The notes beneath the pieces are model-generated. The model searched no databases, was not told where the DNA came from, and saw only the letters and a list, made by a program, of their open reading frames with translations. Shown here one piece after another: positions 28,212-45,482 of a DNA stretch of 64,000 bases. Both the position numbers and the translations under genes were made by a program. Position 1 is the stretch's first letter; the number at the start of each line of letters is the position of its first letter. This stretch comes from an uncultured Nitrospina sp. GTDB taxonomy: Bacteria > Nitrospinota > Nitrospinia > Nitrospinales > VA-1. The stretch covers positions 14,864-78,863 of the forward strand of contig CALAGQ010000001.1 in assembly GCA_937891765.1 (NCBI GenBank), written 5' to 3'.

Positions 28212-28349
28212 TTAGACATACAATGGAAGATAGGCGCTTGGACTACTACAAGAATACGGATGCTTCATTCCAAGTTTCCGGCTGGTTTTTTTTATAGGAA
28301 AAGTCGAGTAAACTGATGCTTTTCGGTCAAACCCGTATCTAATAATTTT

Positions 28350-29119: not shown

Positions 29120-29120
29120 C

Positions 29121-29420
29121 ATGGACATACTTTCCATCATTTTTATAGTAGCGGGCTTATTTTTTATGATTGTTGCTGCGATTGGTGTGGTTCGATTACC
29201 TGATGTGTTTAGCCGTTCTCATGCCGTATCATTAACAGACTCCTTAGGTGCCTTTTTGATGTTAGTTGGAATCGCCTTCCATGAGGGGCTGGGTAAAAAT
29301 ACACTGAAAATTCTAGTGGTGTTGGCCTTGTTGTATATTCTAAATCCAGTCATTGCACATGCCACGATTCGCGCGGCTTTCCGGTCTGGTGTAAAACCTT
29401 GGCAAAAGAAATCCTCATGA
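29121..29420 (+). CDS. mrpG: Mrp/Mnh antiporter subunit G
   Basis: The start at ATG 29121 is 1 nt after the mrpF stop. The block AAIGVVRLPDVFSRSHAVSLTDSLG matches the MnhG signature (RLPD..R.HA). Confidence 0.8.
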   Translation: MDILSIIFIVAGLFFMIVAAIGVVRLPDVFSRSHAVSLTDSLGAFLMLVGIAFHEGLGKNTLKILVVLALLYILNPVIAHATIRAAFRSGVKPWQKKSS

Positions 29421-29947
29421 TCTTTCCATTTGAAATTCCTTTACTCCTTCTCCTGCTTGTTACCGCCGCCGGTGCCATCCTGGTTAAGGATTTGATGAGT
29501 GCCGTTCTACTCTTGGGCACTTACAGTTTTTTCCTGTCGTTGGTATGGGGATGGTTTGGAGCAGTAGATGTCGCCTTCGTGGAAGCCGTCGTAGGAGCAG
29601 GATTAGGTACGGTTTTGTTTCTATTAACTCTATTTGGTACTGCTCCCAAAGACACTCGGCTTCATCGTCCTCCTCCTTCTCTGTTAACGTTAATTGTTTT
29701 TCCCCTCTTGGGGTTTCTTTTGCTCTATGCCGCGAGCGATCTTCCTGAATTTAGGGACCCGAGTTCTCCAGCAAGTGTTCATATTTCGCCGACCTATCTT
29801 GAGCAGAGTTATCAGGATACCCACACTCCGAATGTTGTCACTGCGGTACTGATGGACTATCGATCGCTTGATACGATGGTCGAAACCGTAGTGATTTTTG
29901 CGGCGGGCATTGCTTGTATTTTACTGCTTAGGAGGCAAGTAAAATGA
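29417..29947 (+). CDS. DUF4040/MrpA-C-terminal-like plus MnhB-N-terminal-like membrane subunit (MbhD/E-like)
   Basis: The start at ATG 29417 overlaps the mrpG stop as ATGA. The GAVDVAFVEAVVGAGLGTVLF and NVVTAVLMDYRSLDTMVETVV blocks are typical of the MnhB/DUF4040 region. Confidence 0.7.
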   Translation: MIFPFEIPLLLLLLVTAAGAILVKDLMSAVLLLGTYSFFLSLVWGWFGAVDVAFVEAVVGAGLGTVLFLLTLFGTAPKDTRLHRPPPSLLTLIVFPLLGFLLLYAASDLPEFRDPSSPASVHISPTYLEQSYQDTHTPNVVTAVLMDYRSLDTMVETVVIFAAGIACILLLRRQVK

Positions 29948-30396
29948 TACGCCAACACGACAGTATTATCGTACATACCTTAGGGCGCTTTGTTATCCCG
30001 GTGGTCCAAATTTTTGGTTTATATGTGTTGTTTTTTGGGCAATACGGACCAGGCGGAGGCTTTGTGGGTGGGGTGATTCTAGGTTCGAGTATGATTTTAT
30101 CGGTCTTGATTTTTGGTCATGACGCTTCCCGGAGTCAAATTGTCAAAAAGGCTTTGCATGCTGATGGGGTAGGGCTGCTGATCTTCGCGGGTGTAGGTGG
30201 CTTGTGTATGATTGGAGGAGGAGAGTTTCTCAATTATGCAAATTTGGAAATTCCAGGTTTGGAAACTGCTTCTCGAAGATCTTTGGGGATCGTACTCACG
30301 CAAATCGGTGTGGCAGTAGATGTTGCGGTAACAGCCATTTCTATTGTGTTCAGTTTGTCTGCTGAAGAAATTATCGAGGATTCAATAAATGGTTGA
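29944..30396 (+). CDS. mrpB: Mrp/Mnh antiporter subunit B
   Basis: 150 aa with a GPGGGFVGG block and four TM helices. It overlaps its neighbour as ATGA. Confidence 0.7.
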   Translation: MIRQHDSIIVHTLGRFVIPVVQIFGLYVLFFGQYGPGGGFVGGVILGSSMILSVLIFGHDASRSQIVKKALHADGVGLLIFAGVGGLCMIGGGEFLNYANLEIPGLETASRRSLGIVLTQIGVAVDVAVTAISIVFSLSAEEIIEDSING

Positions 30397-30766
30397 TGCA
30401 TTTTTAGCAGTTTTTCATCGACCCAATTTTTTGACATTTGTCATCCTTTTTCTGTGGGGCTTTTATGTCATGGTTACGCGATACAATCTCGTAAAGAAAC
30501 TCATCGGGATGTATTTGGTGCAAACCAGCGTGATTTTTTTCCTAGTATCTATTAGCGTGAAGAAGGGCGCGACTGTTCCCGTGCTCTTGTCAATCACGGA
30601 GCCGGTGCAAGCGGCCAGCTATGCGAATCCGTTACCTCATGCACTGACGCTGACTGCTATTGTGGTTGGCGTGGCGACCACCGGCGTGGGTTTAGCCCTG
30701 TGCGGGGCAATCTATCGAAAATATGGAAGCCTTGACGAACAAGAAATTCTTGGAAAATTAGAATGA
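30389..30766 (+). CDS. mrpC: Mrp/Mnh antiporter subunit C (NuoK-like)
   Basis: 125 aa with three TM helices and the NuoK/MnhC-like block RYNLVKKLIGMYLVQTSVIFFLV. It overlaps mrpB by 8 nt. Confidence 0.75.
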   Translation: MVDAFLAVFHRPNFLTFVILFLWGFYVMVTRYNLVKKLIGMYLVQTSVIFFLVSISVKKGATVPVLLSITEPVQAASYANPLPHALTLTAIVVGVATTGVGLALCGAIYRKYGSLDEQEILGKLE

Positions 30767-32232
30767 GTCACCAACTTCCCGCAATCCTATTTCTTCTCCC
30801 ATTGTTTGCAGCTATTTCCATGCCAGTGGTTTGTCTAAAACACCATCACTGGAGCCAGTCAATTTCTGTGGCAACTCTCTCGGCTATGGTGCTGGTCTCT
30901 ATTTTGAATCTCCATAACGTCATTCATCATGGAGAAGTGCGGTATGTGTTTGGTGGGTGGGCTGTGTCCCTCGGCATTGAGTGGGTGGCTGATGGATTAG
31001 CAAGTGTCATCTTAGTGTTAATGAGTGCCTTATGTTTACTGGGTGTAATATTTACTGGACCCGCCTCCCCAAAGAATCTAGGTGGCCGAATCGTTCATTT
31101 TCACACGTTGATTTTATTATTGATGTCCTCTTTGACCGGCATTGTTTTCGCCGGGGATTTTTTCAATCTGTTCGTGTTTTTAGAAGTTGCAGCCATCTCG
31201 AGTTATGCGCTTATTGGTGCAGCTGGAGGGAGAGCGTTGTTTGCAGCCTTTCGCTATCTTATATTGGGAACCATTGGTGCCTCCCTTTTTCTTTTAGGGA
31301 TGAGTTATCTCTATGCGGTGACGGGCACACTGAATATGTCTGATATGGCCGACAAACTTCCTTTGTTGCTAAGCTCTAAAGCTCTAGTAGGTGGACTGCT
31401 TTTTTTGTTTATTGGTTTGGGGATCAAGATGGCCTTAGTCCCGTTTCATTCTTGGTTGCCCGAAGCCTATACTTATGCTCCTGATTCCATTTCCCCTATC
31501 CTAGCTTCACTCGTCACCAAAGTAGCGCTATTGGTGTGGATCAGAATACTCTATTGGGTCTTTAATGCGTCAAATATCATTAATGATATTCCGATTTTGC
31601 TACTGGTGGAAGTTGTTGGAGCATTAGCGGCGGTCATAGGCGCAAGTCTGGCCTTGGCTCAGCGGGATCTTAAAACGATGTTCGCTTATGGAGGGATTTC
31701 GCACATCGGCATCATTCTCATTGGAATCAGTCAAGGCAACCCCACCGGGTTTGTCGGAGGGGTTTTTTATTTATTGAATGATTCCGTTATGCAAGCGGGC
31801 TTGTTTTTTTTAGCAGGCGTCGCGTTTTGTCAGTATGGGGTCAGAGCTATTGATGACATAGGGCGTGTTGGGAAAGAAGCACCCTGGCTCACTGGGTCTT
31901 TAATTATTATGGCCTTCGGCATGATTGGCCTGCCTCCGACGGGTGGTTTTTTTGGCAAATGGTACATCATTCTTGGAGCGTTAGAAGCGGGCAATTATGT
32001 TTCGGTCGCTGCGGTGGTGCTCTCCACGCTCTTGACGCTTGCCTACTTCATTAAACTGTTTGAGGGCATTTTTCACCAAACATCAACTCGATTGGACGTT
32101 CAGTTTGGTGAAATTCCCCTCTCATTTAAACTGACTCTGGGAGTTACGTCCGTAGCTATCATTATTCTTGGTTTATTCAGTTCTCCCATTATTCAACTGT
32201 TGTTGAATCACGCTCTGCCACCAACTCTTTGA
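30763..32232 (+). CDS. mrpD: Mrp subunit D / NuoN-M-like antiporter-like subunit
   Basis: 489 aa and polytopic. It has proton-conducting-transporter blocks (FLEVAAISSYALI, GIKMALVPFHSWLPEAYTYAP, DLKTMFAYGGISHIG). It overlaps mrpC as ATGA. Confidence 0.85.
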   Translation: MSHQLPAILFLLPLFAAISMPVVCLKHHHWSQSISVATLSAMVLVSILNLHNVIHHGEVRYVFGGWAVSLGIEWVADGLASVILVLMSALCLLGVIFTGPASPKNLGGRIVHFHTLILLLMSSLTGIVFAGDFFNLFVFLEVAAISSYALIGAAGGRALFAAFRYLILGTIGASLFLLGMSYLYAVTGTLNMSDMADKLPLLLSSKALVGGLLFLFIGLGIKMALVPFHSWLPEAYTYAPDSISPILASLVTKVALLVWIRILYWVFNASNIINDIPILLLVEVVGALAAVIGASLALAQRDLKTMFAYGGISHIGIILIGISQGNPTGFVGGVFYLLNDSVMQAGLFFLAGVAFCQYGVRAIDDIGRVGKEAPWLTGSLIIMAFGMIGLPPTGGFFGKWYIILGALEAGNYVSVAAVVLSTLLTLAYFIKLFEGIFHQTSTRLDVQFGEIPLSFKLTLGVTSVAIIILGLFSSPIIQLLLNHALPPTL

Positions 32233-32240
32233 GAGGAATT

Positions 32241-34421
32241 ATGGCTCTTTTCGTCCTCATTCCCTTGCTTCCCTTTTTGGCTTCTCTCATTCTTCTGCTT
32301 GGGGGACGTCGTTGGGGTGAGAACGGTCACCGAATTGGGATTCCTGCCATCGGTATCTCTTTTGGGTTATCAGTTGCCGCTTTCATTGAAGTGTGGAGAA
32401 ATGGACCATTTACTGTTTCTCTTTATCGCCTCTTTCAATCTGGTTCCTTAACCATTGATTTAACTCTGTTCGTTGACCAACTGACGGTTTTGCTTTTGCT
32501 CTTGGTTACAGGAGTAAGTGGGGTTGTGCATGTGTATTCCTCTCGTTACATGATAGGAGAGTCCCGATATAATCGTTTTTTTGCCGTCATTGCCTTGTTT
32601 ACTTTTTCTATGATTTTGTTGGTCATGAGTGGCAATCTTTTGATGACGTTGATTAGCTGGGAAGTCATGGGGATCTGTTCCTATCTGCTAATTTCTCACG
32701 CAGCAGAACGTCCTTCAGCTTGCAGGGCGGCCACCAAAGCTTTTCTCGTTAACGCAGTCGCGGATGTCTGGTTCAGTTTTGGCATCATTCTAACCTTTTT
32801 CACCTTTGGTACACTCGATATCCAGACTATTCTTCTTCAGGCTGAAGGTATGCAGGACTACACCATCAATATCTTAGGGTGGATGGGCTTGGATCTTAAT
32901 ATCTATCCTGTGGCGCTTATTCCCTTCTTCCTCTTTATAGGGGCTATGGGAAAATCAGCACAAATACCATTTCACGTTTGGTTACCCGGGGCGATGGAAG
33001 CTCCGACTCCGGTCTCGGCGCTTATTCATGCGGCTACTATGGTGAATGCGGGTCCGTTTTTGTTAGTGCGCTTGAGTCCGTTGATTGTCCTTTCTCCCTA
33101 CGCCATGACTTTCATTGTCATTATTGGTGCCACTACCGCGGTATTTGCTGGGATAGTTTCCTTGACTCAATCGGACATCAAAAAGATTTTGGCCTATTCC
33201 ACAATTAGTCAAATCGGATTCATGGTTATGGCCTGTGGTTTGGGCGCGTTTGCAGTTGCAATTTTCCATCTTCTTGCCCATGGGTGCTACAAAGCGTTCT
33301 TTTTTCTATCTACTGGCAATGCGTTGCGATCAGTGGAACAGGGACTTGGGCATGGTGACCATGAACACCATGTCTCTGAGGGCATGGGGATCTTATATGG
33401 CGGGGCCTTGTTGTTGGCGTTAATCCCGCCGTTAGTTCTGTTCTCAGGATCATATGAATATTTGTGGGGGGTCACGGGGTTTGCTTCTGCAGCGATCGGA
33501 TTCAAAATCATTGGCTTGATTACAGTATTTGTGACTTCTCAATATCTTTTTAAAAACGTCACTTCGCTTTTTGCTCACGATCCAAAGACGTACTGGCTCG
33601 CTTCAGGACAAAATAGTTTGGAGAAACAATCTGTACGACGCCAGTTCTTAAATGGCTCCATTTTAACTGGTCTTTTTCTAACTACGGTTTTTGCAGGTGG
33701 GCTCTTGACTCTGTTTTGGAGTTGGTTCGCCAACTTTCTTGCACCGGCTTTGACCCTTCCAGGGGTCAAGTTAGCTGAAGGTACAGTCGAGCGCGGCTTT
33801 CCTTTTTGGCTTGTTGTTTCTCTTGGCGTGGCAGTGGCGGGGTGGGTCTATGCATACTCCACACAGGTACGATCTCAACATCAGATATCCAGAACAAATG
33901 GGAGAAGCAATCGATTGTATGTCTTTTTTTGGAATAAAGGATACTTTGATGAAATCTATGATGTCTATCTGGTAACCCCAACCATTAAGTTCGCACACTG
34001 GCTGTGGCGAACTATTGATATAAGGGGTATAGATCATTTCATCCATTCTATCGCGACTTATTCTGTGTGTTTTGCCGGGTGGCTGTGGCGAATTATTGAT
34101 ATAAGGGTGATAGATCATTTCATCCATTCTATCGCGACTTATTCTGTGTGTTTTGCCGGGTGGCTGTGGCGAATTATTGATATAAGGGTGATAGATCATT
34201 TCATCCATTTTTTCGCGGCTAATTCTGTTTATTTTTCCCGGTGGTTATGGCGAACGGTTGATATTAATTGGTTGGAGCGGAAAGTGGGGCATGCAGCAGA
34301 AAAAATTAATGATTCGGGGCAATTACTGAAAGAAATTGAACCCCGTACCATCCAACATCAGTTATTTGTAATGATATTTTGGTTAGTTGCGATGACTTTT
34401 CTATTGTATAACATGCTTTAA
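32241..34421 (+). CDS. NuoL/MrpA-N-terminal-like antiporter-like subunit (DabB-type candidate) with an expanded lateral-helix region
   Basis: ATG 32241 is preferred (GAGAGGA Shine-Dalgarno) over TTG 32229. NuoL hallmarks are present: WEVMGICSYLLISH, GAMGKSAQIPFHVWLPGAMEAPTPVSALIHAATMVNAG, DIKKILAYSTISQIGFM and YFDEIYDVYLVTP. The C-terminal region contains the 27-aa tandem repeat. Confidence 0.85.
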   Translation: MALFVLIPLLPFLASLILLLGGRRWGENGHRIGIPAIGISFGLSVAAFIEVWRNGPFTVSLYRLFQSGSLTIDLTLFVDQLTVLLLLLVTGVSGVVHVYSSRYMIGESRYNRFFAVIALFTFSMILLVMSGNLLMTLISWEVMGICSYLLISHAAERPSACRAATKAFLVNAVADVWFSFGIILTFFTFGTLDIQTILLQAEGMQDYTINILGWMGLDLNIYPVALIPFFLFIGAMGKSAQIPFHVWLPGAMEAPTPVSALIHAATMVNAGPFLLVRLSPLIVLSPYAMTFIVIIGATTAVFAGIVSLTQSDIKKILAYSTISQIGFMVMACGLGAFAVAIFHLLAHGCYKAFFFLSTGNALRSVEQGLGHGDHEHHVSEGMGILYGGALLLALIPPLVLFSGSYEYLWGVTGFASAAIGFKIIGLITVFVTSQYLFKNVTSLFAHDPKTYWLASGQNSLEKQSVRRQFLNGSILTGLFLTTVFAGGLLTLFWSWFANFLAPALTLPGVKLAEGTVERGFPFWLVVSLGVAVAGWVYAYSTQVRSQHQISRTNGRSNRLYVFFWNKGYFDEIYDVYLVTPTIKFAHWLWRTIDIRGIDHFIHSIATYSVCFAGWLWRIIDIRVIDHFIHSIATYSVCFAGWLWRIIDIRVIDHFIHFFAANSVYFSRWLWRTVDINWLERKVGHAAEKINDSGQLLKEIEPRTIQHQLFVMIFWLVAMTFLLYNML
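33999..34268 (+). repeat. 81-bp (27-codon) in-frame tandem repeat, about 3.4 copies, inside the NuoL-like gene
   Basis: Unit starts (tggctgtggcgaa...) fall at 33999, 34080, 34161 and 34242. By hand alignment, copies 1 and 2 differ at 3 of 81 nt. Copies 2 and 3 are identical for 45 nt and then differ at 8 positions. Copy 4 is partial. Confidence 0.95.
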
Positions 34422-34549
34422 TGAGTTACCGACTTGTATTCCTAAATTTATAAAAAATGGGTCTGGTTGAAAATGGCCTTACGTCATTTTTCTTGTGCTA
34501 ACTTGAAAAGCAAGGAGTTTACTGCTTTCGTGGGACGGAGATTTTTTAA

Positions 34550-36019
34550 ATGGCTCTATTGATGGATCATCTGATTAGCTGGATGATTGTCGTTCCTTTT
34601 TTAGGAATCGTCATTCTGGCATTTTTGCGTGATGAAGAATCGATTCGACGAATTGCCCTTGGCATCACAATGGTGGAGGTTCTCCTTTCGCTGATACTCT
34701 GGAGGAGTTTCGATTCCACTTTGCAAGGCATGCAGTTCGTGGAGCGCTTGGAATGGATGCCCACGTTTAATATTCAGTATGCGGTTGGTGTTGATGGTAT
34801 TAGTATTCTTATGGTGATACTCACAGCCCTTCTTTGTCCACTCTGTGTCCTTTGTTCGTGGACGGGAATTACAACACGAGTACGAGCCTATCTCTCGCTG
34901 ATCTTGTTAGTTGAAGGTGCCATGATTGTGGTCTTTACCGCCCTGGACCTTTTCCTGTTTTTCATGTTGTGGGAACTTACAATGATTCCCATGTATTTCA
35001 TGATTATTCTCTGGGGTGGGCCGAATCGTATTGCTGCTGGGCTTAAATTCGTTTTGTATAGTCTAACAGGAAGCTTACTGCTACTGGTGGGAATATTGGG
35101 TGTTTATCTTAATGGGGGACATACCTACGATCTTTTGGTGTTAACTGAACAAACTTATTCTTCCAGCACGCAATTCTGGTTATTCTTGGCGTTCTTTCTG
35201 GCTTTTGCTATAAAAATGCCAATGGTTCCCTTTCATACGTGGCTCCCTGACGCCCACTCCGAAGCTCCTACGGCTGGCAGCGTGATTTTGGCTGGAGTGC
35301 TCTTGAAAATGGGAGGATATGGGTTTTTGCGTTTTTGTTTACCTATGTTTCCAGAGGCTTCGGTGAATTTCGCCCCATATATTTTGTGGTTGTCGGTTAC
35401 AGCCATTATCTATGGTGGGTATATGGCCTTGGCACAGTCTGATCTTAAAAAGCTCATAGCCTATTCTTCAGTTTCCCACATGGGTTTTGTTACTCTCGGA
35501 ATTTTTGTGTTCAATAGCCAAGGTATCCAAGGCGCTGTCTTGCAAATGTTTAATCACGGGATTACTACTGCAGCCTTATTTATTTGTGTTGGACAATTGT
35601 ACGAGCGCACTCACAGTCGAGCGATTTCCGACTACGGCGGCTTGCATAATTCCATGCCAAGATTTGTCACATTGTTCTTTTTGTTTTCAGTCGCCGGCTT
35701 TGGGCTACCAGGCACCTGTAATTTCATTGGTGAATTTTTGGTCTTAGTCGGAGTTTCCTATGTCAACTTTGCCATGGTTCTTATCTCTATGGGAGGTATT
35801 GTTTTAGCTGCTGCATATATGTTGTGGATGCTCCAAAGGGTGGCGTTGGGAGAACCATCGACAGAAGCCGCCAAAGTGCTCCCTGATATATCGAATCGGG
35901 AATTGGCTACGCTGATTCCATTGGCTATCCTCGTATTGTGTATTGGATTGTATCCCGGACCATTGATGGAAGTGATGAATGCGAGTGTGATTCACCTCAT
36001 CCAATCTGGCGTAAATTAA
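34550..36019 (+). CDS. NuoM/MrpD-like antiporter-like subunit
   Basis: 489 aa. NuoM hallmarks are present: FFMLWELTMIPMYFMI, AFAIKMPMVPFHTWLPDAHSEAPTAGSVILAGVLLKMGGYGFLRF and DLKKLIAYSSVSHMGF. Confidence 0.85.
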   Translation: MALLMDHLISWMIVVPFLGIVILAFLRDEESIRRIALGITMVEVLLSLILWRSFDSTLQGMQFVERLEWMPTFNIQYAVGVDGISILMVILTALLCPLCVLCSWTGITTRVRAYLSLILLVEGAMIVVFTALDLFLFFMLWELTMIPMYFMIILWGGPNRIAAGLKFVLYSLTGSLLLLVGILGVYLNGGHTYDLLVLTEQTYSSSTQFWLFLAFFLAFAIKMPMVPFHTWLPDAHSEAPTAGSVILAGVLLKMGGYGFLRFCLPMFPEASVNFAPYILWLSVTAIIYGGYMALAQSDLKKLIAYSSVSHMGFVTLGIFVFNSQGIQGAVLQMFNHGITTAALFICVGQLYERTHSRAISDYGGLHNSMPRFVTLFFLFSVAGFGLPGTCNFIGEFLVLVGVSYVNFAMVLISMGGIVLAAAYMLWMLQRVALGEPSTEAAKVLPDISNRELATLIPLAILVLCIGLYPGPLMEVMNASVIHLIQSGVN

Positions 36020-37310: not shown

Positions 37311-40300
37311 ATGTTTGAAAGGGAAAAATCGGTTTTAAAAGCTACTCCTGATGGGCAACCCAAAGTGTCCCGCAAAAAGAACCGTCTACACCTGCTTTAT
37401 TTCTTAATGGCCGCCTTTGATTTGTTAACCATTTCTGGCAGCTTATATTTGAACCATGAAATCATGCAGATCTATAATAATTCCCTGAAGAGCAATGAAG
37501 TCTGGGCGGCACGTCAGGCCTATTTTTCGTATCTTGGGGAGATAGCCTCTTCAGTCAACGCCCCGGGAAACGATATATTTGAAACTCGGAACACAAGCTA
37601 TGAAAAGAAAAGGTTAGATAAGGCTATGGCCTTATTTGAAAAGAAATATAAAAAAGGCGAGCAGGATATTTCACAAAATATCCCACCCAGCGAGTCCAAG
37701 GATCTCCTCAGGGAAATGAAAATCGTTCAAAGTGCTGTTTATGATATGTCTGAATCCACAATCGATATTTTTAAACACTTCGACCTCAAAGATATGATAA
37801 CAGCAGGAAAAAATATGGCGATTATGGATCGGCATTACTACCTGGTAACTACACATTTGGCATTACTGGCAAGTAAAATCCGCACCATCCAAAAACTAAA
37901 TTTTGATGAACAAGTAAAAATCGCAAATCAGTTCAAAAAATATGAATATTTGATAGGCGGATTTATCCTATTGATGGTTTGCCTAGCGTTGTTCTATGGA
38001 AACATGATTTTTAAGCGTTTTCTTGAAAAGGAGATCGAAAAAAACGAAGATTTGGATAAAATCAAACAAGTGTCCAATGCGTTGCAGCATAATCAGTTAT
38101 TGAAAGATATTGCTATTATCTCAAATCAAGCCAAAAGACAAAATGAAGCAACACAGAAATGTATTGACTTAATATGTGAAACCATAAAGTGGCCTGTCGG
38201 CCACTTTTATTTGGTAGATAAAAACTCTAACCGCCTTACTTCCACAGAAATATGGCATATGGAGAACGCTGAGAAGTTTAAGGTATTTAAAGAGGTTACT
38301 GAAAAAACCTCCTTTGATATTGGGGTTGGCTTGCCGGGTCGTGTTTGGGGAAGCGGAGAACCAGCATGGATTGTTGATATAACTCAAGACTTAAACTTCC
38401 CAAGAGCAAAAATTGCAGTCGAAATTGGCGTTCGAGGAGCTTTTGCGTTCCCAATAATGGTAGACAAAGAAATTATAGCTGTGATGGAGTTTTACTCAAC
38501 TCTACGAGAAGAACCTAATGAAAGCCTACTAGATATAATGTCATCAATAGGTGTCCAGATGGGGAGGGTGTTCGAGCGCAAGCAGGCGGAAAATAAGCTA
38601 CTTGATGCCCATAACAACCTAGAGAGTCTGGTCAAGATGCGAACTGGTGAACTGAACTTCCAGAAAATGGCCATTGATGAGCACGCCATCGTCAGCATCA
38701 CCGACATCAAAGGAAACATCAACTACGCCAATGACAAGTTTTGTCATATCAGTGGTTATTCCCGTGATGAACTTATGGGGAAAAATCACCGTATATTGAA
38801 ATCTGAGGAGCACCCGCCAGAATTTTATGAGAATATGTGGAAAACTATTTCTAGCGGTAAGCCGTGGCATGGCGATATCAAGAACAAGAACAAGAGCGAG
38901 GGGCATTATTGGGTTCGTACAACCATTATTCCGAACTTAAACTACGATGGAAAACCCTTCCAGTACATTGGTATCCGCACCGAAATCACGGAAAGCAAAA
39001 ATCTAGAGAAGCAATTAATCCTATCCAAAGAAGAAGCCGAAAAAGCCAATCAGGCTAAGTCCCTGTTCCTCGCTAATATGAGCCACGAGATACGCACCCC
39101 CATGAACGCTATTCTTGGTTTTTCCCAGATTCTACTTAGAAAAAAAGATTTGGACAAGGACACAAAAGACGCCCTCGGAACCATCGATACCAGCGGAAAG
39201 AATCTCCTGGCTATGATTAACGAGATTCTGGATATATCCAAAATAGAGGCAGGAAAGATGAAGTTGAATATCTCCGACTTCGACCTCAAGCATTTGGTTG
39301 ATCATCTTTCAAAATTGTTTGAGCTTCGCTGCCAGCAAAAAGCGTTAGAGTGGAATATTACTGAGTTTGCTAACTCGGTTTTGGTTCGAGGCGATGAGAT
39401 CAAATTACAACAGACTCTGGTCAACCTTCTGGGCAATGCTGTCAAATTTACTGACTCGGGGAAGGTTGAGCTTGCTGTAACCCCTTTGGATAATAACCAA
39501 TTTAAGTTTGATGTTATCGACTCTGGAAAGGGTATTCCCCTTGAAGCTCAAGATAAGATTTTCGATGCGTTTCAGCAGGATGACCAGGGAGAAAAAAAAG
39601 GTGGCACGGGCCTTGGACTAGCTATTTCCAAGAAACAGCTGGAACTCATGGGATCAGATTTGCTCTTGAAATCAGAGATCAATAAAGGTGCACATTTCTA
39701 TTTTACCCTGACTCTTCCACCAGCTGAAAAAGAAGTCCTAGAAGATAGAGGAGAAAAATACAGATACGTCACGCATTTAGCCCCGGAGTGTAAAGTTAAA
39801 GCGCTGGTTGTGGATGATGTCAAAGAAAACAGGGATGTGCTTGCAAAATTATTGTCAAGTATTGGCGTTGAAATAATAGAGGCAGAAAACGGGCAAGTAG
39901 CCGTGGAAAAGGTTAAAGAACATCTGCCCGATATCGTGTTCATGGACTTGCGCATGCCGGTCATGGGTGGTGAAGACGCCACCAAACTGATCATAGGGGA
40001 GTTTGGCAGCGATCGCATTAAAATCGTAGCGATTACAGCGTCTGCCTTCGATCGTCGGCGGGGATATTATATAGAAATGGGATTTCATGAATATATTTCA
40101 AAACCGTTCAAGACGGAAGAGATATTCAAGGGCCTCAATGAACTTCTTGGCGTTGAGTATGTTTATGACGATGACGAGATTTCTCAAGAAGAATCATCCT
40201 CAATAAAAGAACTAGACCTAACTCGAATCTCCATACCAGAAGACCTATATGAAAGGATGATGAAATCCGCTGAGTCGTACAGCGTAACGGAACTCGAAAG

Positions 40301-40433
40301 AAATTTAGCAGAGTTAGGTCAGAATAGCGAAGTCCCAGGGCAATTAGTCGAACACTTAAAACAATTGTTGGGGAAATACGATATGGAGGCGATTCTCAAA
40401 GTATTGGAAAGCGTGTCCAAAACCAAGGCTTAA
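37311..40433 (+). CDS. hybrid sensor histidine kinase/response regulator (TM - GAF - PAS - HisKA - HATPase - REC)
   Basis: 1040 aa. It has an H-box (MSHEIRTPMNAI), an N-box (LLGNAVKFT), G-boxes (DSGKGIP, GGTGLGLAIS) and a receiver domain (KALVVDDVKENR...DIVFMDLRMPVMGG...SKPF). A GAF-like and a PAS-like segment precede the H-box. Confidence 0.9.
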   Translation: MFEREKSVLKATPDGQPKVSRKKNRLHLLYFLMAAFDLLTISGSLYLNHEIMQIYNNSLKSNEVWAARQAYFSYLGEIASSVNAPGNDIFETRNTSYEKKRLDKAMALFEKKYKKGEQDISQNIPPSESKDLLREMKIVQSAVYDMSESTIDIFKHFDLKDMITAGKNMAIMDRHYYLVTTHLALLASKIRTIQKLNFDEQVKIANQFKKYEYLIGGFILLMVCLALFYGNMIFKRFLEKEIEKNEDLDKIKQVSNALQHNQLLKDIAIISNQAKRQNEATQKCIDLICETIKWPVGHFYLVDKNSNRLTSTEIWHMENAEKFKVFKEVTEKTSFDIGVGLPGRVWGSGEPAWIVDITQDLNFPRAKIAVEIGVRGAFAFPIMVDKEIIAVMEFYSTLREEPNESLLDIMSSIGVQMGRVFERKQAENKLLDAHNNLESLVKMRTGELNFQKMAIDEHAIVSITDIKGNINYANDKFCHISGYSRDELMGKNHRILKSEEHPPEFYENMWKTISSGKPWHGDIKNKNKSEGHYWVRTTIIPNLNYDGKPFQYIGIRTEITESKNLEKQLILSKEEAEKANQAKSLFLANMSHEIRTPMNAILGFSQILLRKKDLDKDTKDALGTIDTSGKNLLAMINEILDISKIEAGKMKLNISDFDLKHLVDHLSKLFELRCQQKALEWNITEFANSVLVRGDEIKLQQTLVNLLGNAVKFTDSGKVELAVTPLDNNQFKFDVIDSGKGIPLEAQDKIFDAFQQDDQGEKKGGTGLGLAISKKQLELMGSDLLLKSEINKGAHFYFTLTLPPAEKEVLEDRGEKYRYVTHLAPECKVKALVVDDVKENRDVLAKLLSSIGVEIIEAENGQVAVEKVKEHLPDIVFMDLRMPVMGGEDATKLIIGEFGSDRIKIVAITASAFDRRRGYYIEMGFHEYISKPFKTEEIFKGLNELLGVEYVYDDDEISQEESSSIKELDLTRISIPEDLYERMMKSAESYSVTELERNLAELGQNSEVPGQLVEHLKQLLGKYDMEAILKVLESVSKTKA

Positions 40434-40637
40434 CCCTTACGCCCATAAAAGAAGAGGCTGTTAATGTTGCGGACAAGACCCTTCCTAAAACTGTACGGAA
40501 ATTGATCTTCCCGATATCAGTGGACAGTCAGTACCAGTGACTACTCACTAGAAATTCTGAAGTCCAACTCCTCCAGGCTCAGAAACAAATACAACCAAAT
40601 ACCACGAACCAAGACGAAATGAAGAGTGCTCGTGCTT

Positions 40638-40683
40638 GAATGGCATTCATGAGATCGCGCGTTCGATCTCCCTCAGCTCCACT
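40638..40683 (+). repeat. tmRNA/tRNA-3'-end-like element, direct-repeat copy 2 (degenerate T-stem)
   Basis: gaatggcattcatgagatcgcgcgttcgatctccctcagctccact matches copy 1 at 40 of 46 positions (hand count). Four of the six mismatches fall in the T-stem (three on the 5' arm, one on the 3' arm) and destroy its pairing. Confidence 0.5.
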
Positions 40684-40932
40684 CTTAGCCAGAGTGGCGG
40701 TGTGTGTCTGCAGTAATAAATTGTCGGTGGAAATGCCCCGCCTTTTTTGTTTTGGGATGGGTGTTGTATGTCATGGTTCCTAAAAAGGGGGCTCTCCAAA
40801 TATGGTTTCCCTGTTACAATAACAGGATCAACTGGTTTTCCTGTGGCTTAGACATTGTTACTTTCAACCTGAATTAAAGCTGTCGGGTGAAAGTGATTTG
40901 TTCCCGCTAATTTTGCACATTGGAGATAGTGT

Positions 40933-43314
40933 TTGTTAAAATATTTCGATTATTTTCTTGAGAAAAAGAAGAGAGAATACGATCAGCGTCCTTCTACGCC
41001 TTATCCTCACTACCTCCAGCCCATTTTCTCTTCTCAAGATAGAAAATTTTCTGCTGATCCAGAGATAGTGAACAAGATTCCTAAAGTGTTGCAGGATTTG
41101 CGGCATTTTTTAGGCGAACTCGGTAAAATGTCGATACCTTTCCATGAGTATCAAAAGAAAAAAAATCAATTCATCCAGAAGGTTTGTGAGGCCAACGAGA
41201 TTTTATATGCCGTGGCGTGGAATGAGGCTGTTCTTGATCCTGAATTTCGTGAATTGGTTTTTCAGACAAAAATTGGGCGTGGTTATCAAAAGCCCCGTAA
41301 CCGTCCCAGAGTTCTTATTGACCGGGAGAATGTTTCCGCCAGTCTGCTGGAAAAGAAAATTGTTATCGATTTGCCCAATGATAAATTGCTCGTTCTCCCG
41401 GAAAACCTGGAAGGCAGAACCATCCTCTCCGTTGTGCGTCACGGAGCCTCGAAAGGAAACTCGGCAGACTATAAAATTGGTTCTCTTTACCGCAATTTTC
41501 TGTTGCGGCCTCAGGGATTTGACCGGGCAAAGCGGATAGGAGAAGAATTTGCCAAGATGATTCGTCACGCCAATCTGGCGGTAGAGATGAAAACCTCGGT
41601 TCATTATCTTAAAACCAAAAACCAACCTGTGTATGTCAGCCGATCTCCCAATACCCGGCAATTGGCAGGGGCCATCCGTTCCGTGTTGCAAGACCAGAGT
41701 GGATACCGGGATCGGAGACCGATGACTCATCACGATGCCTTGGATTCCCAGAATTTTGGTCTCTTGACAGGCGAATCTAAGGAAGAGGAGTTGAGCCAAA
41801 TGTGCCGGTGTTTAAACATGTCGGAACAGGATGCCAAAAAAGTTTTGAAAGACCCTCTTTATTGCTATCCCGGGGGCGAAACTTTTTATGAAAATTATCT
41901 TTCTACAATAGAGGGCGCTCATGATATTGCCGAAAACCATCTAGGTTCACATGTTTCCTTATTTACTCATTCGAGCATGATGAGAGCCTTGATGATTTAT
42001 CTGGATATGCGTCCGTTTACCGAGGCGTATAACGAGTATATGTCCTATCAGGAGAGGCAGGATAATGTCATCCTTTTGATTTACGATGAGGGGACATTCA
42101 GCAGTTACTCTTGTGCCGTGGGCCTCTCCAAGGAGGAACTGCAGGCCCGCGAGAAAGAGGAGAAGGAAGGTAAAGACCATGAAGACCACTTGCGGAGCAT
42201 CATAGAAATCTCGCGTTCTGAGGTCAGGCGAATTGCCATGATCACCTCAGGAGGGGACTCGCCGGGAATGAACGCCGTTTTAAAAAGCTTCATTGATAAA
42301 TGCCTGTCGTTAGGGGTCACTCCTTATATTTACAGGAAGGGCATCGAAGGAGTTCTTAAGAATGACGGGCAGGAATATACGGAAGAGGCGCAAAGACGGT
42401 TGCTGGCGACACCCGGAAGTGTGATTCAATGCAACAAACGCTTTAAGCTCATAGAGCAGGAAGGGGCAGAGTTTAAAGCCATTGCAAACCTTCGGAAAAA
42501 TAAATGTGACGCCCTGATAATTGTTGGTGGGGATGGGTCGGTCCGGTTGAGCGATAAACTATTTCAGACGGGATATCCGGTGGTTGCCTTACCCGGAACC
42601 ATTGACAACGACCTCCCGGTTTATTGCCTGGGTTTTGATTCTGCGCTGAACGCTACCATTAATCTTATCCAGATGCTGGAATGGACCAGTCGCTCCATGG
42701 AGCGGGTGCATTTAGCCGAGGTTTACGGTGCCGGATCTGGACACTTCGCTCTTACATTGGCGCATGCCGTTAATCCCCAAGCCGTGCTAGTGAATGAGAT
42801 GAAAGATATAGGAATTGATATCGATGATTTCATCGATAATTATTTAGTGGATAAGCTGACTCTTGGCCTCAAAAGTAAAGACAAAAGCCATATTGTGATT
42901 GTCAGTGAAATGATAAAGCATCGTTATATGATTGATCCCAAAGGAGGCGTCAGCGGCTTAAGTCAAGTCCTGGAGTCGAAACTACGAAAAAAGGGATTGG
43001 AGGTAGAGGCCCGGGAAAGTGTTTTCGCTCACTTACAAAGGGGAGCCCCTGTAGGACGGTTGGACCGGGAATATGGACAGGATCTGGGACGCGAAGCGGT
43101 ACTACGAATTAAAACCGATATTGGAAAATTTGCAGGCAAACTATTGGGAAAGGAATACCCAAGTAGCGATCTCTGGGTCACCTTCCCCCTAAACAATTTG
43201 CCCAAACGGCAATTTCGCTGGGATATCTATAAGGAAATTAATAGGCCTCTTATTCAGGAACAAACCTGGCCCGACAAGTTTTACCAGTTTTTTAATCGAA
43301 AGAATCCCTCATAA
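40933..43314 (+). CDS. fusion protein: unknown N-terminal region + histidine phosphatase (PGAM/FBPase-2 superfamily) domain + PfkA-type (ATP-PFK family) kinase domain
   Basis: 793 aa with a TTG start. The phosphatase has an RHG motif at aa 169-171 (VVRHGASKGN) and a second catalytic His in LFTHSSMMRAL (aa 346). The PFK family motifs are MITSGGDSPGMNA, IIVGGDGS, PGTIDND and HLQRGAPVGRLDR. The canonical MGR motif reads YGA. Confidence 0.8.
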   Translation: MLKYFDYFLEKKKREYDQRPSTPYPHYLQPIFSSQDRKFSADPEIVNKIPKVLQDLRHFLGELGKMSIPFHEYQKKKNQFIQKVCEANEILYAVAWNEAVLDPEFRELVFQTKIGRGYQKPRNRPRVLIDRENVSASLLEKKIVIDLPNDKLLVLPENLEGRTILSVVRHGASKGNSADYKIGSLYRNFLLRPQGFDRAKRIGEEFAKMIRHANLAVEMKTSVHYLKTKNQPVYVSRSPNTRQLAGAIRSVLQDQSGYRDRRPMTHHDALDSQNFGLLTGESKEEELSQMCRCLNMSEQDAKKVLKDPLYCYPGGETFYENYLSTIEGAHDIAENHLGSHVSLFTHSSMMRALMIYLDMRPFTEAYNEYMSYQERQDNVILLIYDEGTFSSYSCAVGLSKEELQAREKEEKEGKDHEDHLRSIIEISRSEVRRIAMITSGGDSPGMNAVLKSFIDKCLSLGVTPYIYRKGIEGVLKNDGQEYTEEAQRRLLATPGSVIQCNKRFKLIEQEGAEFKAIANLRKNKCDALIIVGGDGSVRLSDKLFQTGYPVVALPGTIDNDLPVYCLGFDSALNATINLIQMLEWTSRSMERVHLAEVYGAGSGHFALTLAHAVNPQAVLVNEMKDIGIDIDDFIDNYLVDKLTLGLKSKDKSHIVIVSEMIKHRYMIDPKGGVSGLSQVLESKLRKKGLEVEARESVFAHLQRGAPVGRLDREYGQDLGREAVLRIKTDIGKFAGKLLGKEYPSSDLWVTFPLNNLPKRQFRWDIYKEINRPLIQEQTWPDKFYQFFNRKNPS

Positions 43315-43991: not shown

Positions 43992-45482
43992 ATGATCTCT
44001 CTTTCACTCTCTTATTTGAAACATAACTGGCTGGGCAATATGCGCAACGATGTGCTTGCGGGCATGGTTGTCGCGCTGGCTCTCATTCCTGAAGCGATCG
44101 CCTTCTCTATCATTGCAGGTGTTGACCCCAAGGTGGGTTTGTATGCTTCATTCTGTATTGCTGTTGTCATTGCTTTTATCGGTGGTCGTTCCGGCATGAT
44201 CTCCGCCGCAACGGGTGCCATGGCACTTGTCATGGTTTCACTTGTAAAAGAGTATGGGCTGGAATACCTTTTAGCGGCAACCATCCTGACAGGAATTTTG
44301 CAGATCATTGCGGGTTTATTCAAGTTAGGCTCCCTTATGCGGTTTGTATCACGTTCGGTCGTGACAGGATTTGTGAATGCCTTGGCCATTCTGATTTTCA
44401 TGGCACAACTGCCCGAATTCAAAGGCGCAGGAATCCAGATGTATGGAATGGTCGCTCTCGGCCTGGCAATTATTTATATCTTTCCACGTTTCACAAAGGC
44501 TGTACCATCTCCGCTGATTAGCATCATAACCATCACGGCAATCAGCATTTATTTTGGAATGGATCTGCGTACAGTAGGGGATATGGGAGAGCTTCCTTCC
44601 ACCTTCCCGATCTTTCTTTTACCTGACATACCGCTTAATCTGGATACTTTGCGGATTATTTTCCCCTATTCACTGACCCTGATGGCTGTAGGTTTGCTGG
44701 AGTCACTCATGACAGCAACCATTGTCGATGACCTGACGGATACGCCCAGCAACAAAAATCGTGAGTGTGCCGGACAAGGCATTGCCAATATAGTAGCTGG
44801 TTTTTTTGGAGGCATGGCGGGCTGTGCGATGATCGGGCAATCGGTGATTAATATTAAATCGGGCGGGCGGGGTAGACTATCAACGCTTTTCGCCGGACTC
44901 TTTCTTTTATTTTTGCTTTTAGTTTTGGGGGAATGGGTGAGCCAGATTCCGATGGCCGCGCTCGTTGCCGTCATGATAATGGTTTCGATTGGGACATTTA
45001 GTTGGTCGTCTTTTAAAAATCTAAAAACTTATCCTAAAACCTCCAGTCTGGTCATGATAACCACTGTTATTGTCGTCGTCATGACGCATGATTTGGCAAT
45101 CGGTGTGTTTGTGGGTGTCTTGACGAGTTCACTGTTTTTCGCTCGCAGAGTGTCGCGATTATTAAAGATCGAATCACATCTGTCGGAGGCAAAAGACAAG
45201 CGGACCTACCATATTTATGGGCAGGTCTTTTTTGCTTCCGCTGACACATTTTCAAATTCATTCGATTTTAAGGAAGTTGTTCAAAATGTCACCATTAATC
45301 TCAGCGGAGCTCATTTCTGGGACTTGTCTGCTGTCGGTGCATTGGATAAAGTCGTTATGAAATTTCGTCGTGAAGGAACTGCAGTTCATCTGATTGGTAT
45401 GAATAAGGCGAGTGCTACAATTGTTGATCGTCTGGGAGTGCATGATAAGCCGAATGCGCTTGACCTCATGCCTGAACATTAA
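43992..45482 (+). CDS. SulP-family inorganic anion transporter with a C-terminal STAS domain
   Basis: 496 aa. The N-terminal [24 protein letters not shown] is the SulP signature region. The protein is polytopic, and the C-terminal roughly 110 aa are STAS-like ([13 protein letters not shown]...HLIG). Confidence 0.9.

What the first reader, a model, noticed from the sequence alone, without database searches (positions are those of the whole stretch)
40933..43314. Histidine phosphatase fused to a divergent PfkA-type kinase: a possible bacterial kinase/phosphatase analogue of PFK-2/FBPase-2
Seen in sequence:
- A single 793-aa ORF has three parts. The first roughly 160 aa are an unknown region.
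- The second part is a histidine-phosphatase core. It has RHG at aa 169-171 (from nt 41437) and a second catalytic His at aa 346 in LFTHSSMM.
- From about aa 432 (nt 42226) there is a PfkA-family domain with intact ATP and catalytic motifs (SGGDSPGMNA, GGDGS, PGTIDND, HLQRG...DR).
- The fructose-6-phosphate-binding MGR motif reads YGA, and the GGT/SxR loop reads PGSVIQCNKR.

Established knowledge: eukaryotic PFK-2/FBPase-2 joins a kinase to a histidine-phosphatase domain to set fructose-2,6-bisphosphate levels. Its kinase domain is unrelated to PFK-1.

Inference: this protein pairs opposing activities on one chain using a PFK-1 fold. The altered sugar-phosphate pocket suggests a substrate other than F6P, or a regulatory metabolite cycle. 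I am not aware of a characterised example.
Basis: partly seen in the sequence, partly recalled or inferred. Interest (0 to 1): 0.55.

Follow-up and report, generated by a model that had tools for sequence, protein, structure and literature searches.

The report
Phosphatase–phosphofructokinase fusion of nitrite oxidisers
A real, conserved but uncharacterised 793-residue protein of nitrite-oxidising bacteria joins a histidine phosphatase to a modified phosphofructokinase-type kinase, and in Nitrospira its gene almost always sits next to pyruvate kinase, so it probably helps control glycolysis.

Summary
ORF 40933..43314 (+) encodes 793 aa with three parts: a family-specific helical N-domain, a divergent His_Phos_1 domain (RHG 169-171, His346), and a PfkA-type domain (Pfam E=5e-58).

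It is not an assembly artefact. The same architecture occurs in Nitrospina/Nitrospinota (71-89% identity), in Nitrospira/Nitrospirales (about 32-35%, full length) and in one Desulfobacterota MAG. A scan of 185,579 species genomes found 237 confirmed loci.

Across 110 full-length relatives both catalytic cores are invariant:
- Phosphatase: RHG and the second His.
- Kinase: SGGD, GGDGS, the catalytic Asp (Asp127 in E. coli PfkA), Arg72, Glu222, His249 and Arg252.
- Arg171 of the MGR motif is Ala in all 110, and the PEP/ADP allosteric arginines are gone.

Published gene tables list separate canonical pfkA and fbp genes in N. gracilis and N. marina, so this looks like a paralogue. A 771-aa "pfkA_2" is detected in the N. 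marina proteome.

New here: pyruvate kinase is directly adjacent in 50 of 57 Nitrospira-type loci, in three different arrangements.

Most likely it is a bifunctional kinase/phosphatase acting at the F6P/FBP (or related ketose-phosphate) step. Substrates are untested. I found no paper that describes it.

The parts
40922..40925 (+). Shine-Dalgarno-like GGAG, 7 nt before the TTG start codon
   Evidence: Read directly from the sequence. The start is consistent with homologue N-termini.
40933..43314 (+). Whole gene: 793-aa histidine-phosphatase / PfkA-type kinase fusion (stop codon included)
   Evidence: Full-length homologues exist in Nitrospinota and Nitrospirales.
40933..41412 (+). N-terminal family-specific domain (aa 1-160). 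It is helical to about aa 120, followed by short strands. Conserved Ala95-Trp96-Asn97, Arg124-Pro125 and Arg131.
   Evidence: - No Pfam or NCBIfam hit.
- pLDDT about 90.
- Invariant residues listed.
- The same AWN-type motif can be read by eye in the N-terminal parts of stand-alone relatives P0173, P0190 and P0203. No alignment was made, and the profile matched P0203 only in its phosphatase part.
41413..42129 (+). Histidine-phosphatase (branch 1) domain, aa 161-399. Key residues: Arg169-His170-Gly171, Asn176, Ser238-Pro-Asn-Thr-Arg242, His330, Thr345-His346-Ser347, Arg351.
   Evidence: - Pfam His_Phos_1 at 30.5 bits, above the gathering score of 21.7.
- Foldseek top match PhoE 1h2e (TM 0.75), then PGMs, TIGAR, PspA, CobC and GpgP.
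- RHG and His346 are invariant in 110 of 110 sequences.
42130..42225 (+). Long charged helical linker (aa 400-431)
   Evidence: Predicted helix 400-427. pTM drops from 0.83 for the N-half alone to 0.54 for the full length, so the relative domain orientation is uncertain.
42226..43212 (+). PfkA-type kinase domain, aa 432-760.
- Kept: SGGDSPGMNA, Arg503 (=Arg72), GGDGS, Asp558 (=Asp127), Glu659 (=Glu222), His700 and Arg703 (=His249 and Arg252).
- Changed: Tyr598-Gly-Ala600 in place of Met-Gly-Arg171.
   Evidence: - Pfam PFK E=4.7e-58.
- Alignment to B. stearothermophilus PFK.
- Foldseek matches 1pfk and 6pfk at TM 0.87-0.88.
- Conservation tables.
43213..43311 (+). C-terminal tail (aa 761-793). 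The final ~20 residues (aa 774-793) have pLDDT below 50 and are poorly conserved, while Phe761 and Trp763 are invariant.
   Evidence: pLDDT below 50 for aa 774-793. Invariant residues.

Best explanation
The gene encodes a lineage-restricted bifunctional enzyme of chemolithoautotrophic Nitrospinota and Nitrospirales.

**Shown**
- It is one continuous, conserved protein.
- A protein of matching length and annotation is detected in the N. marina proteome.
- It consists of (i) an N-terminal helical domain plus a divergent histidine-phosphatase domain, a pairing that also appears without a kinase in a few metagenomic proteins, and (ii) a C-terminal PfkA-fold domain.
- The PfkA domain keeps the ATP-binding and catalytic residues. 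It has lost Arg171 of the MGR motif and the PEP/ADP allosteric arginines.

**Inferred**
- The PfkA domain is an active ATP-dependent sugar-phosphate kinase working at, or next to, the fructose-6-phosphate/fructose-1,6-bisphosphate step.
- The phosphatase domain, acting through a phospho-His170 intermediate, removes a phosphate from that product or a closely related bisphosphate.
- One polypeptide would then set the level of a sugar bisphosphate, as PFK-2/FBPase-2 does in eukaryotes, but built on a PFK-1 fold.
- These organisms fix CO2 by the reverse TCA cycle and store glycogen. Such a switch could keep glycolysis and the neighbouring pyruvate kinase off during autotrophic, gluconeogenic growth and on during glycogen use. 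From textbook knowledge, many pyruvate kinases are feed-forward activated by FBP.
- The exact substrate and the reciprocal control of the two activities are not known.
For: - **Real and conserved:** full-length homologues at 71-89% identity (Nitrospina type) and about 32-35% (Nitrospira type). A third lineage occurs in Ca. Desulfatibia. There are 237 confirmed loci in 185,579 species genomes, and the named ones are essentially all Nitrospinota or Nitrospirales.
- **Kinase likely active:** SGGD, GGDGS, Asp127, Arg72-Phe73, Glu222, His249 and Arg252 are invariant in 110 of 110. The fold matches PfkA at TM 0.87-0.88.
- **Phosphatase likely active:** RHG and the second His are invariant. The phosphatase C-terminal half is the best conserved segment of the protein, at 52-55% identity to the Nitrospira consensus. 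The fold matches PhoE, PGM and TIGAR.
- **Not the housekeeping enzyme:** the N. gracilis gene table lists a separate 364-aa pfkA and a class-1 fbp (PMC3578206 supplement). N. marina has pfkA_1 (418 aa), fbp, and a 771-aa 'pfkA_2' (PMC8115632 supplement). All NCBIfam PFK models score below cut-off.
- **Expressed:** N. marina pfkA_2 gives 46-55 spectral counts against 4-5 for pfkA_1 in control cultures.
- **Linked to glycolysis:** pyruvate kinase is immediately adjacent in 50 of 57 Nitrospira-type loci with both flanks available. The arrangements are 23 divergent upstream, 22 co-directional downstream and 5 convergent, and two PK types are involved.
- **Phosphatase module appears self-contained:** stand-alone N-domain-plus-phosphatase proteins exist.
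Against: - No biochemical data exist for any member.
- Arg171, which contacts the transferred phosphoryl group in PfkA, is Ala in all members.
- In the Nitrospira type, Arg162->Ser/Thr, Arg243->Lys, Asp129->Asn and PGMN->AGAG. The kinase could therefore be weak, re-targeted or purely ligand-binding.
- The canonical proton-donor Glu column of branch-1 phosphatases holds Ser272, with Asp/Glu one residue earlier. The second phosphate-binding Arg (Arg242) is Arg in only 67 of 91 Nitrospira-type clusters.
- Sequence-only searches find no solved His-phosphatase.
- Nitrospina-type genes, including this window, are not next to pyruvate kinase: 0 of 11 adjacent, with one case at 2.1 kb.
- Nothing shows that the two domains act on the same molecule.
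- The identity of N. marina pfkA_2 with this family rests on length, annotation and its PK neighbour, not on a sequence comparison made here.
Confidence: 0.4

Rival explanations
1. It is simply a glycolytic ATP-dependent 6-phosphofructokinase, the partner of pyruvate kinase in a pfk-pyk unit. The N-terminal phosphatase-like module would be regulatory or act on an unrelated substrate, not in opposition to the kinase.
For: - Databases annotate it as 6-phosphofructokinase.
- PK adjacency is seen in 88% of Nitrospira-type loci. From my own knowledge, pfkA-pyk operons are classic in Firmicutes.
- In the Nitrospina type all F6P ligands except Met169 and Arg171 are kept.
- The nearest non-fusion relatives are ~320-aa canonical PfkA.
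Against: - Arg171->Ala in all members.
- Scores are far below the NCBIfam PFK equivalog cut-offs, e.g. 155.8 against 371.
- Separate canonical pfkA genes are listed for N. gracilis and N. marina.
- The strict invariance of RHG and His346, and the high conservation of the phosphatase domain, argue that it is an enzyme in its own right.
Confidence: 0.25
2. The PfkA-like domain no longer catalyses. It would be a nucleotide or sugar-phosphate sensing module, like the regulatory C-terminal half of eukaryotic PFK-1, that controls the N-terminal phosphatase, which is the only enzyme.
For: - The phosphatase half is the best conserved part.
- Kinase-site residues drift between lineages: Arg162, Arg243, Asp129 and the PGMN loop in the Nitrospira type, and Asp12->Val and His249->Arg in the Desulfatibia protein.
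- Arg171 is lost.
- The phosphatase module exists alone elsewhere.
Against: Catalytic Asp127, Asp103 (GGDGS), Arg72-Phe73, Thr/Ser125, Glu222, His249 and Arg252 are invariant in 110 sequences spanning about 32% identity. This would be unusual for a pseudo-enzyme.
Confidence: 0.15
3. The two domains catalyse consecutive steps on a substrate other than F6P. One option is sedoheptulose-7-P to sedoheptulose-1,7-P2 and back. Another is phosphorylation at one position and dephosphorylation at another, giving a net phosphate shift.
For: - The pocket is altered.
- PPi-PFKs that accept sedoheptulose-7-P carry substitutions of Arg162 (PMC10339645), and the Nitrospira type has Arg162->Ser/Thr.
- From my own knowledge, yeast SHB17, a histidine phosphatase, is a sedoheptulose bisphosphatase.
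Against: - The Nitrospina type keeps Arg162.
- PK adjacency points to glycolysis rather than pentose metabolism.
- There is no direct evidence for any substrate.
Confidence: 0.15
4. The long ORF is an artefact: a missed stop or frameshift has joined two neighbouring genes.
For: None found. A few database entries are split or truncated (P0123, P0127, P0131, P0132), but the ones I read show frameshifted tails typical of assembly errors.
Against: The same uninterrupted architecture and junction occur in more than 100 clusters from independent assemblies, including complete genomes of N. watsonii, Nitrospira YTPLAS18 and Ca. N. bockiana. A 771-aa product is detected in the N. marina proteome.
Confidence: 0.01

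Closest known systems
Eukaryotic 6-phosphofructo-2-kinase/fructose-2,6-bisphosphatase (PFKFB1-4)
   Same: One chain carries a sugar-phosphate kinase and a branch-1 histidine phosphatase. The PFKFB phosphatase domain appears among the structural matches of the N-half (3qpu, 2axn, 1bif).
   Different: - The kinase here has the PFK-1 (PfkA) fold, not the P-loop 6PF2K fold. There is no PF01591 hit.
- Domain order is reversed, with the phosphatase N-terminal.
- There is an extra N-terminal helical domain.
- It is bacterial.
- Substrate and reciprocity are untested.
Bacterial ATP-dependent 6-phosphofructokinase PfkA (E. coli 1pfk, B. stearothermophilus 6pfk/4pfk)
   Same: - Fold matches at TM 0.87-0.88.
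- The ATP-type Gly104 and Gly124 are kept.
- SGGD, GGDGS, TIDND with Asp127, Arg72, Glu222, His249 and Arg252 are kept.
   Different: - Only 26-37% identical.
- MGR becomes YGA or MGA: Arg171->Ala in all members.
- Allosteric Arg21, Arg25 and Arg154 are not kept.
- It carries a 430-aa N-terminal extension.
- It scores below the NCBIfam cut-offs.
Broad-specificity branch-1 histidine phosphatases (PhoE 1h2e, TIGAR 3dcy, H. thermophilus PspA 4ij6, CobC, GpgP Rv2419c, dPGM)
   Same: Fold matches PhoE and PspA at TM 0.75. The motifs RHGxxxxN, SxxxR and THxxxxR are present.
   Different: - Very divergent. Sequence and profile searches of the PDB find nothing.
- Ser occupies the usual Glu proton-donor column.
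- Family-specific motifs are KDPLYCYPGG and Y-x-E-x-QDN.
- In the few relatives I read, it comes with an N-terminal part carrying the AWN-type motif.
pfkA-pyk gene pairs of Firmicutes (from my own knowledge; not checked here)
   Same: A PFK-family gene lies next to pyruvate kinase in 50 of 57 Nitrospira-type loci.
   Different: The orientation varies (divergent, co-directional, convergent). The PFK gene carries the phosphatase fusion. The pairing is absent in the Nitrospina type.

Membership tests
Phosphofructokinase family A (Pfam PF00365, PfkA type) | Significant match to the family profile, and the PfkA fold | tested here: met
   Pfam E=4.7e-58 and 197 bits against a cut-off of 30.9. Foldseek matches 1pfk and 6pfk at TM 0.87-0.88.
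Phosphofructokinase family A (Pfam PF00365, PfkA type) | ATP-site and catalytic residues: Gly11/Asp12 loop, Arg72, Asp103 (GGDGS), Thr125, Asp127 | tested here: met
   Present in the window protein and invariant in 110 of 110 relatives.
Phosphofructokinase family A (Pfam PF00365, PfkA type) | Met169-Gly170-Arg171 (MGR) motif at the sugar / transferred-phosphate site | tested here: not met
   It reads Tyr-Gly-Ala here. The position is Ala in 110 of 110 fusion proteins, against Arg in 106 of 117 canonical PfkA.
ATP-dependent 6-phosphofructokinase equivalogs (NCBIfam TIGR02482, NF002872) | Score at or above the curated cut-off | tested here: not met
   155.8 against 371.35 (TIGR02482), and 188.8 against 253 (NF002872).
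ATP-dependent 6-phosphofructokinase equivalogs (NCBIfam TIGR02482, NF002872) | F6P 1-kinase activity | not testable with these tools
   Needs an enzyme assay.
Histidine phosphatase superfamily, branch 1 (Pfam PF00300) | Profile match above the gathering score, and the fold | tested here: met
   30.5 bits against 21.7. Foldseek matches PhoE 1h2e at TM 0.75 with E=7.5e-9. Most Nitrospira-type members carry no precomputed PF00300 hit.
Histidine phosphatase superfamily, branch 1 (Pfam PF00300) | Catalytic RHG histidine and the second histidine | tested here: met
   Arg169-His170-Gly171 and His346 are invariant in 110 of 110.
Histidine phosphatase superfamily, branch 1 (Pfam PF00300) | Second phosphate-binding Arg and a Glu proton donor | tested here: inconclusive
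   Arg242 is present here and in all Nitrospina-type proteins, but in only 67 of 91 Nitrospira-type clusters. The usual Glu column holds Ser272, with Asp/Glu271 one residue before.
6-phosphofructo-2-kinase/fructose-2,6-bisphosphatase (PFK-2/FBPase-2) | N-terminal 6PF2K (P-loop) kinase domain | tested here: not met
   No PF01591 hit. The kinase is PF00365 and is C-terminal.
6-phosphofructo-2-kinase/fructose-2,6-bisphosphatase (PFK-2/FBPase-2) | Synthesis and hydrolysis of fructose-2,6-bisphosphate | not testable with these tools
   Needs assays.

The most novel reading that the evidence does not exclude
Nitrite-oxidising, reverse-TCA autotrophs have independently built a PFK-2/FBPase-2-like switch from a PFK-1 fold and a histidine phosphatase. 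One protein makes and destroys a sugar bisphosphate signal (FBP or an unconventional bisphosphate). That signal gates the neighbouring pyruvate kinase, and so sets the direction of carbon flow between CO2 fixation with glycogen storage and glycolysis.
Probability: 0.2. Interest if true: 0.8.

Novelty: new variant of a known kind. Interest (0 to 1): 0.55.

Why it matters
Nitrospina and Nitrospira carry out most nitrite oxidation in the oceans, soils and wastewater plants. They fix CO2 by the reverse TCA cycle while storing glycogen, and how they avoid futile cycling between gluconeogenesis and glycolysis is unknown.

This protein appears close to a signature of those clades and, by length and annotation, is detected in the N. 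marina proteome. It is gene-linked to pyruvate kinase and combines two potentially opposing activities, so it is a concrete and easily testable candidate for that control point.

It also bears on genome interpretation. It is auto-annotated as '6-phosphofructokinase' although it fails the curated PFK thresholds. Statements that glycolysis is 'complete' or that 'PFK is lacking' in these genomes may depend on how this gene is read.

If both activities act on one metabolite, it would be a convergent bacterial counterpart of PFK-2/FBPase-2.

Tried and rejected
- **Frameshift or fusion artefact:** rejected on conservation of the architecture.
- **Sequence-only PDB searches with the N-half:** neither the single sequence nor an 8-sequence profile gave any significant hit. 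Only structure prediction plus Foldseek identified the fold.
- **Fold of the first ~160 aa:** Foldseek hits were dominated by the phosphatase, so this domain could not be assigned. I therefore could not inspect the sugar pocket or the domain contacts.
- **Conserved operon around Nitrospina-type genes:** none found in the window, L003, L010 or L012-L018. Recurrent but inconsistent neighbours are a hybrid histidine kinase upstream (window, L006), SulP (window, L005) and an aminotransferase (L003, L005).
- **Automatic clustering of all flanking ORFs:** swamped by shadow ORFs overlapping the fusion and PK genes. Only PK adjacency was scored.
- **RNA elements in the window:** no tRNA, tmRNA or Rfam family, including the 500-nt upstream gap.
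- **Literature:** no paper mentions this fusion. The search for Arg171 mutagenesis data found nothing usable.
- **Great Lakes Nitrospira:** I tried to link MAG GL140_6 (L039) to the paper reporting Great Lakes Nitrospira as 'lacking phosphofructokinase', and could not confirm the link.
- **SixA-like phosphohistidine protein phosphatase acting on the upstream hybrid kinase:** considered and dropped, because the neighbour is not conserved and the fused partner is a PfkA domain.
Full report
**1. Observation**

The ORF at 40933..43314 on the + strand is real: 793 codons from a TTG start. A GGAG lies 7 nt upstream. The N-terminus matches Nitrospina homologues that begin MLKYFDYFLE.

Pfam places a PFK domain (PF00365) at aa 433-723 with E=4.7e-58. 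It places a His_Phos_1 domain (PF00300) at aa 168-366 with 30.5 bits, above the gathering score of 21.7.

There is one correction. The 'PGSVIQCNKR' loop still ends in the conserved Arg-Phe, equivalent to Arg72-Phe73 of E. coli PfkA. This Nitrospina protein also keeps Arg162, Arg243, Glu222, His249 and Arg252. The unambiguous pocket change is therefore Met169->Tyr and Arg171->Ala.

**2. Not an artefact; who has it**

A search of 5.8 billion proteins returned 129 significant relatives.
- Nitrospina/Nitrospinota proteins are 71-89% identical over the full length. They include the complete genome of N. watsonii.
- About 90 Nitrospira clusters are 31-35% identical over 86-97% of the length and measure 763-790 aa. 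They include complete or large genomes.

The window is therefore from a Nitrospina-like organism.

A profile of the N-terminal half was searched against 1.84 billion representative proteins. It found only 88 hits, nearly all of them fragments of this family. One further full-length lineage turned up: 'Candidatus Desulfatibia', 785 aa, 29% identical over 690 aa. A few proteins carry the N-domain plus phosphatase without any PFK part (P0173, P0190, P0203, P0219).

A scan of one genome per species (185,579 species) confirmed 237 loci. Of the 80 returned, 7 were Nitrospina/Nitrospinota. The rest were Nitrospira, Nitrospirales, Nitrospiraceae or Nitrospirota, including one labelled Ca. Manganitrophaceae and one 'uncultured bacterium'.

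**3. Anatomy and conservation**

I aligned 110 full-length sequences, 19 of Nitrospina type and 91 of Nitrospira type.

Phosphatase domain:
- Invariant: Arg169-His170-Gly171, Ser173, Ser238-Pro-Asn240, Thr345-His346-Ser347 and Arg351.
- Near-invariant: Thr241 and His330.
- The C-terminal half of this domain is the best conserved stretch of the protein, at 52-55% identity between this protein and the Nitrospira consensus.

Kinase domain:
- Invariant: Ser439-Gly-Gly-Asp442, Gly445, Arg503-Phe504 (=Arg72-Phe73), Asp534-Gly-Ser536 of GGDGS, Asp558 (=Asp127, the catalytic base), Glu659 (=Glu222), His700 and Arg703 (=His249 and Arg252).
- Position 171 is Ala in all 110. Among 117 canonical ~320-aa PfkA proteins it is Arg in 106.
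- The arginines of the PEP/ADP allosteric site (Arg21, Arg25, Arg154) are not kept.
- The Nitrospira type also has Arg162->Ser/Thr, Arg243->Lys, Asp129->Asn, and AGAG in place of PGMN.

Weak points on the phosphatase side:
- The column that normally holds the Glu proton donor holds Ser272, with Asp/Glu one residue earlier.
- Arg242 is Arg in only 67 of 91 Nitrospira-type clusters.

All NCBIfam PFK models score far below their cut-offs. After the family itself (633 bits), the next PFK-domain relatives are ordinary PfkA at 145 bits or less.

**4. Structure**

AlphaFold2 with a 69-sequence alignment gave mean pLDDT 80.7 and pTM 0.54 for the full length. For aa 1-436 alone it gave pLDDT 82.9 and pTM 0.83.
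- The C-terminal domain superposes on bacterial PfkA (1pfk, 6pfk; TM 0.87-0.88).
- The N-half matches branch-1 histidine phosphatases with no preference for one specificity. The matches are PhoE 1h2e (TM 0.75), phosphoglycerate mutases, TIGAR, H. thermophilus phosphoserine phosphatase, CobC, GpgP and the PFKFB phosphatase domain.
- Residues 1-120 form a confident helical domain with no assignment.
- A long charged helix (aa 400-427) links the halves. The lower full-length pTM means their mutual orientation is not defined.

**5. Context**

In this window the gene stands alone. It lies between a hybrid histidine kinase (37311-40433) and a SulP/STAS transporter (43992-45482), with a terminator-like hairpin at 40726-40742 in the 500-nt upstream gap. 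Nitrospina-type loci share no conserved neighbour.

Nitrospira-type loci are different. Pyruvate kinase is immediately adjacent in 50 of the 57 loci that have at least 1.8 kb on both sides. It is upstream and divergent in 23, downstream on the same strand in 22, and downstream and convergent in 5. The kinases are of two kinds, about 66-70% or about 36% identical to the L001 kinase.

Adjacency that survives rearrangement is good evidence of a functional link. It ties the protein to glycolysis.

**6. Literature**

- The N. gracilis genome paper lists a separate 364-aa pfkA and a class-1 fbp. It states that glycogen is stored and can be catabolised by the EMP pathway (PMC3578206).
- The N. marina paper lists pfkA_1 (418 aa) and a 771-aa 'putative 6-phosphofructokinase' pfkA_2, whose neighbouring gene is pykF.
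- In the N. marina proteome, pfkA_2 gave 46-55 spectral counts in controls and 19-38 under low oxygen. pfkA_1 rose from 4-5 to 11-21 (PMC8115632 supplement).
- I equate pfkA_2 with this family on length, annotation and neighbour, not on a sequence comparison.
- No paper in the library discusses the fusion.
- A study of C. thermocellum PFKs notes that PPi-PFKs accepting sedoheptulose-7-P have Arg162 replaced (PMC10339645). That is a lead for the Nitrospira type only.

**7. Interpretation**

*Shown:*
- The protein is conserved and lineage-restricted.
- It combines a self-contained N-domain-plus-histidine-phosphatase module with a PfkA-fold domain.
- Both catalytic cores are under strong constraint.
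- Published gene tables list canonical pfkA and fbp genes in related genomes.
- In Nitrospira it is linked to pyruvate kinase.

*Inferred (confidence about 0.4):* both domains are active and work on the same node. A kinase makes, and a phosphatase removes, a sugar bisphosphate at or near the F6P/FBP step. The protein would then act as a glycolysis/gluconeogenesis switch in reverse-TCA autotrophs that store glycogen.

*Rivals:*
- A plain glycolytic PFK with an accessory module (0.25).
- A sensor-type pseudo-kinase controlling the phosphatase (0.15).
- Two consecutive steps on another ketose phosphate such as S7P/SBP (0.15).
- An artefact (about 0.01).

**8. Comparison and novelty**

The protein works like PFK-2/FBPase-2 in domain logic only. 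It is not a member of that family: it has no 6PF2K domain, the order is reversed, and the kinase has the PfkA fold.
- It belongs to the PFK family A superfamily by fold and profile. It fails the MGR motif and the curated equivalog thresholds.
- It belongs to the branch-1 histidine phosphatases by fold, Pfam score and the RHG and His residues. The proton donor is unresolved.

I rate it a new variant of known kinds. The architecture is present in databases under a generic PFK name, but I found no paper that describes or characterises it. Interest is 0.55. Specialists in nitrifier physiology or central-carbon regulation would find it notable, and it is directly testable, but substrate and mechanism remain inference.

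Noticed in passing
window 25197-36019: A DabA gene (PF10070, E=2e-263, 25197-28211) is followed by an MnhE-like Na+/H+ antiporter subunit (28350-28856) and three Proton_antipo_M (NuoL/M/N / MrpA/D-like) genes (30763-36019). This suggests a DAB-type inorganic-carbon uptake component embedded in an Mrp-like multi-subunit cluster, rather than the usual two-gene dabAB.
   Followed up: no
Nitrospira-type loci L001, L009, L011, L019-L091: Two clearly different pyruvate kinases (about 66-70% and about 36% identical to the L001 kinase) each sit next to the fusion gene in different Nitrospira lineages, in three gene orientations. The association has therefore been kept, or re-made, through rearrangements.
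   Followed up: partly
proteins P0173, P0190, P0203, P0219 (metagenomic, short contigs): These are stand-alone relatives of the phosphatase domain without a PFK domain. They share the motifs SPNT/SENT, LxSQxFG, YxYPxG, THSS/DHSG and KExQD. In P0173, P0190 and P0203 an AWN-type motif is also readable upstream. P0190 ends in a short extra C-terminal region instead of PFK. Their taxonomy and context are unknown.
   Followed up: partly
L039 (Nitrospira sp. isolate GL140_6_metabat_96_sub, 3.9-kb contig): This MAG carries the fusion gene with pyruvate kinase downstream. A paper on streamlined Great Lakes Nitrospira states that they 'lack phosphofructokinase' (PMC9239080). If this MAG belongs to that group, the fusion escaped the PFK call. 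I could not confirm the link.
   Followed up: partly
window 37311-40433 and L006 3479-5833: A large hybrid histidine kinase lies directly upstream on the same strand as the fusion gene, both in this window (GAF-PAS-HisKA-HATPase-REC) and in one Nitrospira locus (DUF4118-PAS-HisKA_3-HATPase-REC). This is not seen in the other loci examined and may be coincidence.
   Followed up: partly
window 40434-40932: A 500-nt non-coding gap lies before the gene, with a terminator-like hairpin plus T-run at 40726-40742. No tRNA, tmRNA or Rfam family matched.
   Followed up: partly
window 700-2313: An ORF combines an N-terminal Rieske [2Fe-2S] domain with the FMN-binding 'Glu_synthase' conserved region. This is an unusual pairing.
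   Followed up: no
window 17197-19179: A 660-aa ORF carries a DCC1-like thiol-disulfide oxidoreductase domain followed by lipase maturation factor domains (LMF1, LMF1_C). From my own knowledge, LMF1 is best known from eukaryotes.
   Followed up: no
L089 (Candidatus Manganitrophaceae bacterium GW715_bin.13): The fusion family also occurs in a MAG labelled as a member of the manganese-oxidising Nitrospirota family. The family is therefore not strictly tied to nitrite oxidation.
   Followed up: no
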